Below are positions 1,102 to 2,682 of a stretch of DNA of 3,997 nucleotides, in pieces. The position numbers were made by a program, and so were the translations under genes. Under the pieces are notes generated by a model. The model ran no database searches. It saw nothing but the letters and a program-made list of their open reading frames with translations, and was not told the DNA's origin. Position 1 is the stretch's first letter. Every line of letters starts with the position of its first letter. The stretch comes from a virus (Duplodnaviria > Heunggongvirae > Uroviricota > Caudoviricetes), in the IMG/VR virus record IMGVR_UViG_3300014970_000063. One strand, 5' to 3'.

Positions 1102-1160
1102 TTTACACACAAAATGTACTAAAAGTACTTTACAACAATGAACGCAAAGTACATTATATG
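1102..1160 (+). promoter_or_regulatory. Early-operon promoter with operator repeats downstream of the repressor gene (OL / PdicB-like)
   Basis: T-tract 1096-1104 (UP-element-like), -35 TTTACA 1129-1134, -10 candidates CATTAT 1152-1157 or TACATT 1150-1155. Operator-like motifs: ATGTACT 1114-1120 (inverted copy), AGTACTT 1124-1130 and AGTACAT 1148-1154, the last two with the same 24-bp core spacing seen at 564/588. Confidence 0.5.
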
Positions 1161-1492: not shown

Positions 1493-2068
1493 ATGGATTT
1501 CGACACAATCATGGAAAAGGCTTACGAAGAATACTTCGAAGGTCTTGCCGAAGGCGAAGAAGCTCTCAGCTTCAGTGAGTTTAAACAGGCACTCAGAATA
1601 AGAATGTGCTCTCACAATGACGCGGAGCACAAATATGAGAAGCAAAATCAGACCGCAGAAAATTTTGTTCTGGAACCCGGAGAAACGCTTTTCAAAATTC
1701 CCGTTACGTGCCCCATTTGCGGTTTTACATCAGAAGAACTTGACGACTCCTGTAACAATCAGGAAACAACCAAGTATGTCGAAGATGATACCGAGTGCGC
1801 ACTAAGAACGATTATATCCACGAGTCCAAACTCCAGGACCAATAAATCTCACTTTGAGAGGGTGATTAATCCACTCCCCCAAACCAATAAAAAAGATGCC
1901 GGAGGACAAAAAACCCAATGGAACAACGGGATATCTGTCAAAAAAAGACGTTCCATTAAAGACAAACAACGCAGCGCCAACAACTGTAAGCGCTTTATAC
2001 CAGCAATCAATTTTCATGTTCTTAAGCGGATTTATTGGTGGTTGCGACATTGCTTAATGAATCCTTAA
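1493..2068 (+). CDS. Hypothetical protein, 191 aa; acidic N-terminal half with a Cys cluster; 3' half of uncertain coding status
   Basis: ATG at 1493 with SD AGGTGA 7 nt upstream, tightly coupled to the preceding ORF. Codons 1-103 (1493-1801) have G at first codon position in 39 of 103 codons (coding-like) and carry CPICG...DDSC...DTEC. Codons 104-191 (1802-2065) drop to 12 of 88 G at first position, are K/N/Q/R-rich and use rare codons (AGA, AGG, ATA, CTA, CGA). No stop occurs before TAA at 2066-2068. Confidence 0.5.
   Translation: MDFDTIMEKAYEEYFEGLAEGEEALSFSEFKQALRIRMCSHNDAEHKYEKQNQTAENFVLEPGETLFKIPVTCPICGFTSEELDDSCNNQETTKYVEDDTECALRTIISTSPNSRTNKSHFERVINPLPQTNKKDAGGQKTQWNNGISVKKRRSIKDKQRSANNCKRFIPAINFHVLKRIYWWLRHCLMNP
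1802..2050 (-). CDS. Candidate small two-transmembrane-segment membrane protein, 82 aa (or 71 aa from the ATG at 2017); may instead be a shadow ORF
   Basis: The minus-strand ORF is exactly codon-aligned antisense to the 3' half of ORF 1493..2068. Its translation has two hydrophobic segments (WYKALTVVGAALFVFNGTSFF and VVPLGFLSSGIFFIGLGEWI) and G at first codon position in 22 of 82 codons. An AAGGA SD lies 11 nt upstream of the ATG at 2050, inside the inverted repeat 2061-2089. This is a position-analogous ORF to Rac sieB, which I recall as being on the opposite strand; no homology is claimed. Confidence 0.3.
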   Translation of the reverse strand: MSQPPINPLKNMKIDCWYKALTVVGAALFVFNGTSFFDRYPVVPLGFLSSGIFFIGLGEWINHPLKVRFIGPGVWTRGYNRS

Positions 2069-2089
2069 AACTGTGGTGATTTTAAGGAT
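2061..2089. repeat. Perfect 10-bp inverted repeat ATCCTTAAAA-N9-TTTTAAGGAT
   Basis: Read directly from the sequence. It covers the stop codon (2066-2068) of the plus ORF and, on the minus strand, the SD of ORF 1802..2050. No U-tract follows on either strand, so it is not a classical intrinsic terminator. Confidence 0.6.
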
Positions 2090-2129
2090 ACCACCTCGCC
2101 TGACGTGGTTAAAAGCAGGCACACAACAC

Positions 2130-2195
2130 GAAAGCGCACGGCGAAGTTCGTCTCACTGTACGGTGTCGTTAAATTTAATTCGACCGTGCGCTTCC
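2130..2195 (+). other. Long interrupted hairpin (AAGCGCACGG 2132-2141 pairs with CCGTGCGCTT 2184-2193, plus 4 more bp after a 1-nt bulge); candidate RNA processing or structural element
   Basis: 10-bp perfect complementarity plus the flanking CGAA/TTCG pairs, read from the sequence. It lies in a GC-rich segment without convincing ATG-initiated ORFs; the track ORFs 2073..2258 and 2105..2296 start at GTG and are rich in rare codons. Confidence 0.45.
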
Positions 2196-2327
2196 GGTTG
2201 TGGCAACCCGCGAAATGGCGCGGCGGTAAGTATGGCGGGGTTATTCCTTCCCCGTTGAGGACACCGAGTTGTCAGGTTGACCATACGCTTAAGTGACAAC
2301 CCCGCTGCAACGCCCTCTGTTATCAAT

Positions 2328-2385
2328 TTTCTGGTGACGTTTGGCGGTATCAGTTTTACTCCGTGACTGCTCTGCCGCCGTTTTT
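2328..2385 (+). ncRNA. dicF: DicF-like small RNA (prophage-encoded ftsZ antisense sRNA family), about 53 nt plus U-tail
   Basis: TTTCTGGTGACGTTTGGCGGTATCAGTTTTACTCCGTGACTGCTCTGCCGCC(G)TTTTT matches my recollection of E. coli Qin DicF almost base for base, including the GGCGG/CCGCC terminator stem. The genomic context (DicA-like repressor, then YdfA-like ORF, then this sRNA) matches the Qin dicB operon order as recalled. Not confirmed by any search. Confidence 0.7.
2343..2385 (+). terminator. Rho-independent terminator (3' end of the DicF-like sRNA)
   Basis: Stem GGCGGTA (2343-2349) pairs with TGCCGCC (2373-2379), with an inner CAGT/ACTG helix (2351-2354 with 2366-2369), followed by G and TTTTT (2381-2385). 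Confidence 0.65.
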
Positions 2386-2454
2386 AAAGTGAATTTTGTG
2401 ATGCGGTGAATGCGGCTAAGCGCACGCGGAACAGTTAAAACCAAAAACAGTGTT

Positions 2455-2682
2455 ATGGGTGGATTCTCTGTATCCGAAGAGCAGTTAATTGCGCTGAAAG
2501 GAATAAAAAAAGGTACGTTAAAAAAGGTCCGGGAAAAATCGTTTATGGAAGGAAGGGAATATAAGCATGTCGCTCATGACGGTATGCCATGGGATAACAG
2601 TCCATGCTTTTACAACCTGGAAGAAATTGATCGCTGGATTGAGCGCCAGGCATCAGCAAGACCAAGACGTCATCTTACTTGA
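2455..2682 (+). CDS. xis: Excisionase-like protein (lambda Xis-type), 75 aa from the ATG at 2455; the maximal ORF starts at 2410 (90 aa)
   Basis: Sits immediately upstream of and co-oriented with the integrase gene. The core KGTLKKVREKSFMEGREYKHVAHDG resembles the lambda Xis region SLETVRRWVRECRIFPPPVKDGREYLFHES as recalled (shared GREY motif). Neither candidate start has a good SD. The ATG at 2410 lies inside tandem repeats that may be promoter elements, so 2455 is preferred. Confidence 0.6.
   Translation: MGGFSVSEEQLIALKGIKKGTLKKVREKSFMEGREYKHVAHDGMPWDNSPCFYNLEEIDRWIERQASARPRRHLT

What the first reader, a model, noticed from the sequence alone, without database searches (positions are those of the whole stretch)
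2090..2429. GC-rich hairpin-dense non-coding segment with a 14-mer present three times around the DicF-like sRNA
AAGCGCACGGCGAA (2132-2145), its inverted copy CCGTGCGCTT (2184-2193) and AAGCGCACGCGGAA (2418-2431) bracket the sRNA. The first two form a long stem. Further stems occur at CCGCG/CGCGG (2208-2223), CGGGG/CCCCG (2235-2254) and GTTGTCA/TGACAAC (2268-2300). The third 14-mer copy could pair alternatively with the inverted copy. This could be an sRNA precursor-processing structure or a set of protein-binding sites; published DicF biogenesis involves RNase III and RNase E.
Basis: partly seen in the sequence, partly recalled or inferred. Interest (0 to 1): 0.45.

Follow-up and report, generated by a model that had tools for sequence, protein, structure and literature searches.

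The report
Conserved folded RNA domain preceding DicF
The flagged stretch is the untranslated leader of the prophage small RNA DicF: a known RNase III cutting hairpin, then an unannotated, conserved 115-base folded RNA domain found in about four-fifths of E. coli genomes and in phage P1, whose job is still unknown.

Summary

Copies 1 and 2 form a hairpin of about 22 bp (2122-2145/2179-2202). All lineages keep it as a duplex despite different sequences. It coincides with the published RNase III site that creates the 5' end of the 190-nt long form of DicF in K-12.

The three smaller stems are not independent. With a closing helix, a fourth helix and a 6-bp pseudoknot they form one 115-nt four-way junction (2197-2311). 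Compensatory changes support it and no conserved ORF crosses it.

This domain matches no Rfam family. It occurs in 4305 of 5426 complete E. coli genomes, in lambdoid phages and in P1/P7, where it is annotated only as 'dicF-like region'. A DicF-type terminator always follows it.

Copy 3 lies in the loop of a second processing hairpin. That hairpin's 3' arm is deleted in this window along with dicB.

The 'precursor-processing' reading holds for the first stem. The function of the conserved domain is open. I favour a cis-acting maturation or stability domain of a pro-sRNA. Rivals are a stand-alone RNA and a put-like antiterminator.

The parts
1129..1157 (+). Putative repressor-controlled early-left promoter (dicBp equivalent), source of the transcript that carries the region
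   Evidence: Promoter-like site with -35 TTTACA and -10 CATTAT. It lies between the dicA-like repressor gene (619-1038) and ydfA (1336-1491; DUF1391). Ragunathan et al. report no internal promoter in K-12.
2122..2145 (+). Stem A, 5' arm of the upstream RNase III-type hairpin; contains 14-mer copy 1 (2132-2145)
   Evidence: Fold (dG -39.4, z -3.49). Every lineage keeps a duplex of about 20-24 bp with a different sequence.
2179..2202 (+). Stem A, 3' arm; contains the inverted copy (2184-2193). The inferred RNase III cut that makes the 5' end of the long (about 190-nt) DicF form falls at about 2192-2197. Its last 6 nt (GUUGUG, 2197-2202) double as the 5' strand of helix P1
   Evidence: K-12 mapping: counting 190 nt back from the terminator U-tract, and counting +813/814 from the predicted dicBp start, both land on L002 4085-4090, which is window 2192-2197.
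2197..2311 (+). Conserved 115-nt four-way-junction domain ('module X'). P1 is 2197-2204/2304-2311. H1 is 2208-2212/2219-2223. P2 is 2224-2227/2263-2266. H2 is 2236-2240/2250-2254. H3 is 2268-2274/2294-2300.
   Evidence: The MFE of the isolated domain equals the consensus structure and RNAalifold agrees. In 63 distinct sequences 95.5% of cells are paired, against 32-63% when partners are slid, and 7 pairs change on both sides. CM R1 scores 159 bits here and finds one copy per phage genome. There is no Rfam hit.
2230..2235 (+). Pseudoknot 5' strand GUAUGG, in the internal loop between P2 and H2
   Evidence: It pairs with CCAUAC at 2281-2286. Cells are 99.2% paired. The P1 lineage has GCAUGG/CCAUGC, a change on both sides, and two sequences show G-U intermediates.
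2275..2293 (+). 19-nt H3 loop GGUUGACCAUACGCUUAAG, nearly invariant; 2281-2286 is the pseudoknot 3' strand
   Evidence: Across 9 lineage representatives, 21 of 25 pseudoknot and H3-loop positions are invariant, against 0 of 22 flank positions and 0 of 13 H2-loop positions. In a sample chosen by a different part of the domain, 112 of 117 instances keep the canonical loop.
2312..2328 (+). Single-stranded linker GCCCUCUGUUAUCAAUU, ending at the RNase E cut that makes the 53-nt DicF 5' end
   Evidence: The DicF model starts at 2329.
2329..2385 (+). DicF sRNA (RF00039, 2329-2380) with its intrinsic terminator hairpin and U-tract (2381-2385)
   Evidence: 72.5 bits, E 3e-15.
2389..2408 (+). Orphan 5' arm of the downstream RNase III hairpin (stem B). 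In K-12 it pairs with CACCGCAUCACAAAAUUCAU just upstream of the dicB ribosome-binding site
   Evidence: Sequence of L255 and K-12. The K-12 fold shows a stem of about 28 bp. The complementary arm is absent from the + strand of this window.
2418..2431 (+). 14-mer copy 3, inside what would be the loop of stem B; probably a relic of a duplicated processing hairpin
   Evidence: It is only weakly paired in the K-12 fold. In cdtI and F1055 the arms of the downstream hairpin resemble those of the upstream one.
2476..2477 (.). Junction of a 1,080-bp deletion, relative to E. coli ET896, that removed dicB, ydfD', exo', the 3' arm of stem B and the start of xis

Best explanation
The segment is the untranslated, processed leader of a DicF-type sRNA in a Qin-type lambdoid prophage.

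Transcription starts at the repressor-controlled early-left promoter and runs through ydfA/ydfB' into this region. The new 5' end lies at the foot of a 115-nt domain (2197-2311). That domain folds into a four-way junction locked by a 6-bp pseudoknot. A 17-nt linker, DicF and its terminator follow. Together these make the published ~190-nt 'long DicF'. RNase E then cuts at about 2328/2329 and releases the 53-nt sRNA.

GUUGUG (2197-2202) is shared between the RNase III hairpin and the closing helix P1. RNase III cleavage should therefore free this strand and let the junction close.

My preferred function for the domain: it acts in cis as the body of a pro-sRNA. It buries the 5'-monophosphate end, and through its invariant loop it probably binds a host factor. 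In this way it would set the stability of the long form and the rate or position of RNase E maturation.

Shown: the sequence features, their conservation and covariation, and, from published K-12 work, the two nucleases and the 190-nt and 53-nt species. Inferred: the exact cut in this window, the refolding step, and the function of the domain.
For: Identity and context. The region corresponds to the K-12 ydfC-dicF-dicB untranslated interval at 93% identity. DicF is at 2329-2380.

Published processing. The long 190-nt form depends on RNase III and the 53-nt form on RNase E. The long form accumulates when RNase E is inactivated. No internal promoter was found.

Mapping. Two independent counts, 190 nt back from the terminator and +813/814 from the predicted dicBp start, converge on the 3' arm of stem A, 0-5 nt before P1.

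Stem A. It is kept as a duplex of 20-24 bp in the Qin, cdtI and F1055/L045 lineages with largely different arm sequences.

Domain structure. The MFE equals the consensus. Cells are 95.5-96.1% paired, against 30-63% in slid controls. Eight pairs change on both sides, and 0 of 500 shuffles reach the covariation score. H2 exists in at least 7 different, still complementary versions with loops of 9-14 nt and one 23-nt insertion.

Not coding. In every frame the shortest stop-free span through the H3 loop is 90 nt or less across 85 variants. Indels of 1, 3, 4 and 23 nt occur. There are no Pfam hits.

Selection on loop sequence. 21 of 25 pseudoknot and H3-loop positions are invariant across 9 lineages, against 0 of 22 flank positions.

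Coupling to an sRNA 3' end. All 118 instances are followed by a hairpin plus U-tract within about 30-85 nt, with at least 8 different seed and terminator alleles.

Phage P1. The same domain starts 36 nt after the predicted Pban start and a terminator follows it. Termination there would give an RNA of about 180 nt, the same unit without any need for RNase III.

Precedent. Stem-loops guide RNase E processing of 3'-derived sRNAs such as MicL (cited).
Against: The function is inferred. No experiment addresses the domain itself.

Simple hairpins would be enough to guide RNase E or hide a 5' end. A pseudoknotted junction with an invariant 19-nt loop looks over-engineered for that job and suggests some other specific partner.

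DicF-type sRNAs exist without the domain in the same operon position. Examples are 'GGUUGUG-AAUAA-CAAC' in 86 viral contigs, many of them in YdfA contexts, and a P1-like plasmid. The domain is therefore not needed to make the sRNA.

The family is evolutionarily shallow, with at least 74% identity and all members from phages of Enterobacteriaceae. Many of the double changes trace to a few lineage splits. Most sequences were also collected by exact match to part of the domain; this bias was only partly checked.

The exact RNase III cut is inferred from a length and a predicted start site, not read from the primary figure.

In this window dicB and stem B are deleted, so part of the native context is missing.
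Confidence: 0.5

Rival explanations
1. Stand-alone accessory RNA. The domain would be a separate functional RNA, cut out of the operon transcript like a tRNA. RNase III cuts at its 5' foot and RNase E cuts 17 nt after its 3' foot. The released RNA of about 135 nt would act in trans by binding or titrating a host protein or RNA through its invariant loop. DicF would simply be its neighbour.
For: The domain is present or absent as a precise cassette between the P1 strands. It is bracketed by nuclease sites. Its closing helix joins both ends, and its loop is more conserved than its stems. It persists in cryptic prophages of 79% of E. coli genomes, with up to 8 copies.
Against: No instance was found away from a DicF-type terminator (118 of 118). 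No 135-nt species has been reported; published blots used DicF probes. No partner is known, and no Rfam family resembles it.
Confidence: 0.2
2. Put-like cis-acting antiterminator. The nascent domain would bind the transcribing RNA polymerase and let it read through the DicF terminator, and through Rho sites in the long untranslated stretch. Downstream early genes could then be expressed without an N protein: dicB, kil, exo, xis and int in lambdoid phages, and the tRNAs and ban in P1.
For: The layout is early promoter, then folded RNA, then intrinsic terminator, as for HK022 putL. In P1 the domain starts 36 nt after the predicted Pban start, ahead of about 2.6 kb that is largely untranslated. 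cdtI and HannyBb encode Q but have no annotated N. None of 85 domain-bearing loci has a lambda-type or 933W-type N upstream, against 23 of 58 domain-less loci. DicB is expressed from dicBp in vivo, so some read-through happens (abstract).
Against: There is no sequence or structure similarity to putL or putR (z at most 1.7; no CM hit in the HK022 immunity region). Each phage has only one copy and the rightward operon has none. Thirty of the 35 domain-less, N-less loci have the same YdfA context, so the domain is not a simple substitute for N. A P1-like plasmid keeps the terminator without the domain. The terminated 190-nt RNA is abundant in K-12 and no longer species was detected. There is no boxA or ops element.
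Confidence: 0.17
3. Riboswitch-type sensor. The junction would be a ligand-binding aptamer and the DicF terminator its expression platform.
For: The domain has the look of an aptamer: covarying stems, a variable peripheral hairpin, invariant loop and junction nucleotides, a pseudoknot, and a terminator 30-85 nt downstream.
Against: No conserved alternative pairing links the domain to the terminator. The GGCGGUA similarity to the terminator arm is absent in P1. The terminators and linkers are unrelated among lineages. The domain matches no Rfam riboswitch class. Its narrow phage-only distribution is unusual for metabolite sensors.
Confidence: 0.05
4. No function of its own. The hairpins would be a hitch-hiking remnant, for example of duplicated processing hairpins or of an old gene, preserved only because the prophage module spread recently.
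For: The family is shallow, with at least 74% identity. Folding energy is not exceptional (z -1.2). The domain is dispensable in some phages. Stems A and B look like duplicates.
Against: Conservation is strongly patterned: the loop and pseudoknot are invariant while the flanks and the H2 loop are free. Compensatory changes occur in P1, P2, H2, H3 and the pseudoknot. The domain is retained between unrelated flanks in P1 and in lambdoid phages.
Confidence: 0.06
5. Protein-coding. The region would encode a small ydfC-like protein, using the 61-aa and 63-aa ORFs on the + strand or the 57-aa ORF on the - strand.
For: ORFs at 2073-2258 and 2105-2296 (both with GTG starts) and at 2153-2326 on the minus strand exist. 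Some phage annotations place 'hypothetical protein' here.
Against: ydfC lies elsewhere in K-12, ending 120 nt before the homologous region, and is absent from this window. No frame stays open across variants. A 1-nt indel (CCCCG versus CCCCCG) is common. There are no Pfam hits. Substitutions are compensatory for RNA pairing.
Confidence: 0.02

Closest known systems
Long (190-nt) form of DicF and its RNase III/RNase E processing in E. coli K-12 Qin (Faubladier et al. 1990; Ragunathan et al. 2023, PMC10448788)
   Same: It is the same locus at 93% identity. The same hairpin lies where the RNase III cut maps. The same 53-nt sRNA and terminator are present. The domain described here is the 5' two-thirds of that 190-nt RNA.
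   Different: In the papers I could read, the long form is described only as a band and a cleavage position, with no fold or conservation. This window also lacks ydfC, dicB and the downstream RNase III arm.
'dicF-like region' misc_feature of phage P1/P7 (NC_005856, 68791-68892)
   Same: That feature overlaps the 3' half of the same domain plus the following terminator. CM R1 scores P1 at 91 bits and P7 at 99 bits.
   Different: P1 has no DicF sRNA sequence and no RNase III hairpin there. The domain sits 36 nt after the predicted Pban start and its closing helix is unclear. The label reflects nucleotide similarity to the old dicF GenBank entry, not similarity to the sRNA.
HK022 put RNAs (cis-acting, factor-independent antiterminators; Hwang et al. 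2022, PMC9378689)
   Same: Both are folded RNAs with non-canonical tertiary features, lie in early operons of temperate coliphages that lack N, and are followed closely by a terminator.
   Different: put RNAs are about 70 nt with two stem-loops and occur twice per phage (putL and putR). This domain is a 115-nt four-way junction with a pseudoknot and occurs once per phage. No sequence similarity or CM hit links them. Antitermination activity has not been tested here.
RNase E-matured sRNAs with dispensable or regulatory 5' portions (ArcZ, RprA, MicL, CpxQ; review PMC9438474)
   Same: In both, a longer precursor ends at the sRNA's own terminator and the active 3' fragment is released by RNase E. 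Adjacent stem-loops can direct the cut.
   Different: To my knowledge, none of those 5' portions is a conserved pseudoknotted junction shared between unrelated operons. None is delivered by an RNase III cut at its foot.
RNase III processing hairpins of phage early transcripts (lambda N leader, lambda sib, T7 early sites; from general knowledge)
   Same: Stems A and B are long, imperfect dsRNA hairpins that bracket a unit inside a polycistronic early transcript. Stem B ends at the ribosome-binding site of the next gene.
   Different: Here the two hairpins excise a non-coding unit (domain plus sRNA) rather than tuning one mRNA. The base of stem A overlaps a helix of the next structure.

Membership tests
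DicF sRNA (Rfam RF00039) | Covariance-model score above the gathering threshold | tested here: met
   2329-2380 scores 72.5 bits against a threshold of 48, E 3e-15. The model covers only these 52 nt; 2090-2328 lies outside it.
DicF long-form precursor (190 nt, K-12) | Orthologous sequence from the RNase III cut to the DicF terminator | tested here: met
   93% identity to K-12 over window 2111-2460. The domain is 99.1% identical to the MG1655 copy.
DicF long-form precursor (190 nt, K-12) | 5' end produced by RNase III, 53-nt form produced by RNase E | not testable with these tools
   This rests on published Northern blots and primer extension in K-12. Here only the position was mapped, by length and by +813/814 from a predicted start site.
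RNase III processing hairpin | About two helical turns (at least 20 bp) of mostly continuous dsRNA | tested here: met
   2122-2145/2179-2202: about 22 bp, dG -39.4, z -3.49.
RNase III processing hairpin | Duplex maintained through sequence change | tested here: met
   The Qin arms AAGCGCACGG/CCGUGCGCUU, the cdtI arms UGAGGGCAUU/AAGUGCUCUCA and the F1055 arms GAGAGCAUUG/CAGUGCUCUC all pair, at -23 to -40 kcal/mol.
HK022 put antiterminator RNA | Sequence and structure similarity to putL/putR (about 70 nt, two stem-loops) | tested here: not met
   Local alignment z is at most 1.7 against shuffles. CM R1 finds nothing in the HK022 immunity region. The architecture is a four-way junction.
HK022 put antiterminator RNA | One site in each early operon (putL and putR) | tested here: not met
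   There is exactly one copy in the complete cdtI and HannyBb genomes, in the leftward operon.
HK022 put antiterminator RNA | Terminator read-through that depends on the RNA polymerase beta' zinc-binding domain | not testable with these tools
   This needs transcription assays.
Lambda-type nut site / N antitermination | boxA (CGCTCTTA or TGCTCTTTA) plus a boxB hairpin downstream of the promoter, and an N gene | tested here: not met
   There is no boxA-like match on the + strand between 1160 and 2431. None of 85 domain-bearing loci has a lambda-type or 933W-type N upstream. Other N families were not searched.
RfaH ops element | GGCGGTAGNNTG in the non-template strand | tested here: not met
   No match with up to 1 mismatch. 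GGCGGTAAGTATG carries a 1-nt insertion, and its T covaries as an RNA base pair in P7.
tRNA / tRNA-like element | Cloverleaf recognised by tRNA detectors | tested here: not met
   ARAGORN finds no gene. There is no Rfam tRNA or tmRNA hit at E up to 10.
Any curated Rfam family (riboswitches, ribozymes, phage RNAs, AgvB, C4) | Covariance-model match | tested here: not met
   DicF is the only match in the window at E up to 1. At E up to 10 on 2110-2330 the only match is c4-a1b1 at 9.3 bits. Nothing covers the domain in P1.
Small protein gene (ydfC-like) | Conserved open reading frame with coding-type substitutions | tested here: not met
   no frame stays open; no Pfam hit; ydfC is elsewhere and is missing here.

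The most novel reading that the evidence does not exclude
The 115-nt pseudoknotted four-way junction would be a new class of phage RNA element that acts on the host transcription or RNA-decay machinery. In one version it binds the elongating RNA polymerase and provides N-independent read-through of the DicF terminator, a functional analogue of put that is unrelated to it. [quoted passage not shown] Either way, DicF, one of the oldest known sRNAs, would be the tail of a larger two-domain regulatory RNA carried by most E. coli strains and by P1.
Probability: 0.3. Interest if true: 0.8.

Novelty: new variant of a known kind. Interest (0 to 1): 0.55.

Why it matters
DicF has been studied since 1989 and is known to affect cell division, metabolism and EHEC virulence. 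Its long 190-nt form is still treated as a mere intermediate.

This analysis shows that two-thirds of that RNA is a conserved, tertiary-folded domain. The domain is portable between unrelated phage operons, is unannotated in RefSeq and is absent from Rfam. It is carried, often in several copies, by about 79% of complete E. coli genomes.

This turns a vague 'hairpin-rich UTR' into a defined object with testable parts: the closing helix that overlaps the RNase III stem, the pseudoknot and the invariant loop.

If the domain controls sRNA maturation, it is a new layer of DicF regulation. If it modifies RNA polymerase or titrates a host factor, it is a new phage strategy.

At the least, it deserves an Rfam family and an annotation.

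Tried and rejected
(1) Genome-contig scan with GCGGCGG-N(35-65)-CAGGTTGACCAT. It was swamped by chance matches in GC-rich genomes.

(2) Homology to put. Short shared motifs (GCGCGGCGG, ACCAUGCG) looked promising, but they are not colinear and not significant.

(3) 'The domain replaces N'. The first test looked strong, 0 of 85 against 23 of 58. However, most N-less, domain-less loci share the same YdfA context, so the simple form of the idea is rejected.

(4) tRNA-like element, ops, boxA and AgvB-like anti-GcvB RNA. The CACAACA at 2122-2128 is not conserved in K-12, and AgvB maps to late regions. All rejected.

(5) All-against-all covariation scan. It was too confounded by the few lineages to reveal further tertiary pairs.

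(6) The closing helix in P1-type copies could not be settled.

(7) Antiterminator pairing between GGCGGUA of the domain and the terminator's 3' arm appeared in a single-sequence MFE. It is not conserved in P1 or cdtI and is rejected.

(8) Pairing of the H2 loop (UCCUU) with GAGGA is not conserved across H2 variants.

(9) Papers that would have helped are not held: Faubladier and Bouché 1994, King et al. 2011 and Lobocka et al. 2004. The supplements of Altuvia et al. 2018 are not held either. I therefore cannot exclude that one of these already drew the fold.
Full report
CONTEXT

The window is a Qin-type lambdoid prophage of E. coli. It lies next to rspB in the closest genomes. Its parts, in order:
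- a ydaT-like gene and a cro/dicC-like gene on the minus strand;
- a dicA-like repressor gene (619-1038);
- a promoter-like site at 1129-1157;
- ydfA (1336-1491, DUF1391) and a truncated ydfB;
- an unannotated stretch;
- DicF (RF00039, 2329-2380, 72.5 bits);
- excisionase and integrase genes.

The finding (2090-2429) corresponds to the untranslated ydfC-dicF-dicB interval of K-12 Qin. The match runs from window 2111 to 2460 at 93% identity and begins 120 nt after the ydfC stop. ydfC itself is absent from this window. Relative to E. coli ET896, the window also lacks 1,080 bp containing dicB, ydfD', exo' and the start of xis. The junction is at 2476/2477.

THE OBSERVATION

- The 9-mer AAGCGCACG occurs at 2132, at 2185 (inverted) and at 2418. 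The expectation is 0.03, and 0 of 200 shuffles reach three copies.
- Copies 1 and 2 lie in a hairpin of about 22 bp, 2122-2145 with 2179-2202 (dG -39.4 kcal/mol, z -3.49).
- The stems at 2208-2223, 2236-2254 and 2268-2300 are real.
- The segment has 53.5% G+C, against 44.4% for the window.
- Thermodynamics alone is unremarkable: z is -1.55 for the whole segment and -1.2 for the core.

WHAT THE FIRST STEM IS

Ragunathan et al. (J Bacteriol 2023), confirming Faubladier et al. 1990, show that K-12 makes two DicF species.
- A 53-nt form has a 5' end that needs RNase E.
- A 190-nt form has a 5' end made by RNase III, 'between positions 813 and 814'. It disappears in an rnc mutant and accumulates when RNase E is inactivated.
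- No internal promoter was found.

I mapped the RNase III cut in two ways on the K-12 locus. First, 190 nt back from the terminator U-tract gives L002 4085-4089. Second, +813/814 from the start predicted by the dicBp -10 (TAATCT) gives L002 4087-4090. Both fall in CCGUGCGCUUCCGG, the 3' arm of the hairpin, which is window 2192-2197.

Comparative data agree. The Qin, cdtI and F1055/L045 lineages all keep a duplex of 20-24 bp at this place, but with largely different arm sequences.

WHAT THE OTHER STEMS ARE

A phage search showed that window ~2197-2319 travels on its own. It occurs without Qin flanks in cdtI, Ayreon, 2H10, Stx2c phages and Salmonella phage F1055. It also occurs in P1/P7, right after the C1-controlled Pban promoter, where the P1 record calls it a 'dicF-like region'.

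I collected 63 distinct copies. RNAalifold and the MFE of the isolated window sequence give the same fold:
- closing helix P1, 2197-2204/2304-2311;
- H1, 2208-2212/2219-2223;
- P2, 2224-2227/2263-2266, which encloses H2, 2236-2240/2250-2254;
- H3, 2268-2274/2294-2300, with a 19-nt loop.

On the alignment, 95.5% of cells pair, against 32-63% when partners are slid by 1-3 columns. Seven pairs change on both sides, and 0 of 500 shuffles reach the covariation score.

H2 is the clearest case. It exists as CGGGG/CCCCG, CUGGG/CCCAG, CUGGGG/CUCCAG, CCAGGUG/CACCUG, CAGGGG/CUCCUG, CGGGU/ACCC and CGAGG/CCUCG. Its loops are 9-14 nt, and one copy has a 23-nt insertion.

A 6-bp pseudoknot joins GUAUGG (2230-2235) to CCAUAC (2281-2286) in the H3 loop. 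The P1 lineage has GCAUGG/CCAUGC, and two sequences show G-U intermediates. Cells are 99.2% paired.

Conservation is patterned. Across nine lineage representatives, 21 of 25 pseudoknot and H3-loop positions are invariant, against 0 of 22 flank positions and 0 of 13 H2-loop positions. Most copies were fetched by an exact match inside the H3 loop. I therefore repeated the sampling with a 19-mer from H1/P2, and 112 of 117 copies still carry the canonical loop.

The domain is not coding.
- No frame stays open across variants.
- A 1-nt indel is common.
- The overlapping ORFs have no Pfam hit.

The domain also matches no known RNA class.
- It matches no Rfam family, even at E up to 10.
- It is not seen as a tRNA.

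It is present in 4305 of 5426 complete E. coli genomes, with up to 8 copies, and is never annotated.

ARCHITECTURE OF THE UNIT

In lambdoid contexts the order is:
1. stem A;
2. the domain;
3. a variable 'seed';
4. a terminator hairpin with U-tract;
5. a second long hairpin (stem B);
6. the ribosome-binding site of the next gene.

This order is seen. All 118 copies are followed by a terminator-like hairpin within about 30-85 nt, with at least eight different seed and terminator alleles.

In K-12, stem B pairs the sequence right after DicF (window 2389-2408) with CACCGCAUCACAAAAUUCAU, just before the dicB Shine-Dalgarno sequence. This fits the published RNase III-made 72-nt DicF 3' end. The window keeps only the 5' arm.

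It can pair with the inverted copy at -23 kcal/mol, but the local stem A is far stronger at -36.8 kcal/mol. In F1055 and cdtI the arms of stem B resemble those of stem A (ACACAAC...GAGCAU). Copy 3 is therefore most simply a relic of a duplicated processing hairpin.

The base of stem A (GUUGUG, 2197-2202) is also the 5' strand of P1. RNase III cleavage should release it so that the junction can close. This step is an inference.

In P1 no hairpin is needed. The predicted Pban start is 36 nt before H1, and termination would give an RNA of about 180 nt, the same unit.

THE DOMAIN IS OPTIONAL

- phiSTEC1589-Stx1c has stem A joined directly to the sRNA through GGUUGUG-AAUAA-CAAC. This is the P1 strands with the core removed. 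The form occurs in 86 viral contigs.
- Phage 75/02 Stx keeps only the 3' third of the domain.
- A P1-like plasmid lacks the domain but keeps the terminator.

FUNCTION

I tested the attractive idea that the domain is an N-independent, put-like antiterminator.

In favour:
- The layout is promoter, folded RNA, terminator, as for HK022 putL.
- cdtI and HannyBb have Q but no annotated N.
- None of 85 domain-bearing loci has a lambda-type or 933W-type N upstream, against 23 of 58 domain-less loci.

Against:
- There is no similarity to putL or putR.
- There is one copy per phage and none in the rightward operon.
- Thirty of the 35 N-less, domain-less loci have the same YdfA context.
- The terminated 190-nt RNA is abundant in K-12.
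- There is no boxA or ops element.

I therefore rank it third.

The best-supported reading is that the domain is the body of a pro-sRNA.
- It starts at the RNase III-made end.
- It ends 17 nt before the RNase E cut.
- It is always tied to an sRNA-type terminator.
- Together with DicF it forms the stable long species.

Its likely roles are to hide the 5' monophosphate and, through a factor bound at the invariant loop, to set the stability of the long form and its RNase E maturation. Stem-loop-guided processing of MicL is a precedent.

The closest rival is a stand-alone RNA of about 135 nt, released by the two nucleases and acting in trans. I cannot separate these two readings with sequence data.

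NOVELTY AND LIMITS

The RNase III hairpin, the 190-nt species and the RNase E step are published. The fold of the 115-nt domain, its pseudoknot, its spread to P1 and other phages and its prevalence are, as far as my searches reach, not described. They are absent from Rfam 15 and from RefSeq annotation.

Three older papers that might show a structure are not held.

The family is shallow, so several 'double changes' are single evolutionary events. The RNase III cut in this window is inferred. No function has been tested.

Noticed in passing
window 2476/2477 (and 2455-2682): Relative to E. coli ET896 and LR-27, the window lacks 1,080 bp holding dicB, ydfD', a truncated exonuclease and the first 46 nt of xis. 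A new ATG at 2455 yields a 75-aa DUF1233 excisionase fusion. No complete genome in the collection has this exact junction.
   Followed up: partly
window 1493-2068 (+) and 1802-2050 (-): The N-terminus of ydfB runs on into a 191-aa ORF (205 aa from an upstream ATG) that contains a CPICG motif. Phage HannyBb annotates it as a hypothetical protein. An 82-aa hydrophobic ORF lies antisense to it. Neither has a Pfam hit, and RefSeq leaves about 1600-2330 unannotated.
   Followed up: partly
window 2061-2089: A perfect 10-bp inverted repeat, ATCCTTAAAA / TTTTAAGGAT, with a 9-nt spacer lies just before the region. Its function was not examined.
   Followed up: no
window 2090-2138: This 49-nt piece alone matches Klebsiella phage Kp4866-6, Cronobacter phage phiES15 and Salmonella phage MS2 LVA at 92-100% identity. 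It may be another mobile segment boundary or element upstream of the RNase III hairpin.
   Followed up: no
window 2122-2128: CACAACA, the consensus target of the GcvB R1 seed used by the phage anti-sRNA AgvB, sits in the 5' arm of stem A. K-12 has CAUAACG there, so this is probably chance.
   Followed up: partly
window 2254-2262 vs K-12 L002 ~4430: GTTGAGGAC, in the internal loop 3' of H2, is identical to the sequence that carries the dicB Shine-Dalgarno in K-12, at the end of stem B's 3' arm. The pyrimidine-rich H2 loop (UCCUU/CUCC) could pair with either copy, but this pairing is not conserved in all H2 variants.
   Followed up: partly
loci L005, L009, L014, L039, L045, L069, L108, L146, L253 (downstream of the domain): DicF-family sRNAs come in at least eight alleles, with different 5' seeds and terminator stems but a common ...UUUGGCGG... 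start of the hairpin. E. albertii has its own allele. The phage recorded as Actinobacillus phage pPE4 carries a tandem duplication of the sRNA unit.
   Followed up: partly
L262 1240-1300 and L254 1250-1310 (P1-like plasmids): About 250 nt upstream of the domain site there is a remnant, CACCCCCGCTGCAACGAACAGCCA, that resembles the 3' end of the domain plus linker. A post-DicF-like TTTGAAAGTGAAT follows it. This suggests repeated tandem duplication and decay of these units.
   Followed up: no
L358 (IMG/VR contig), domain copy: Rare H3-loop variants exist: CAGGCUGACC in 4 contigs and CAGGUUGGCC in 1. All lie outside the pseudoknot strand. They could guide mutagenesis.
   Followed up: no
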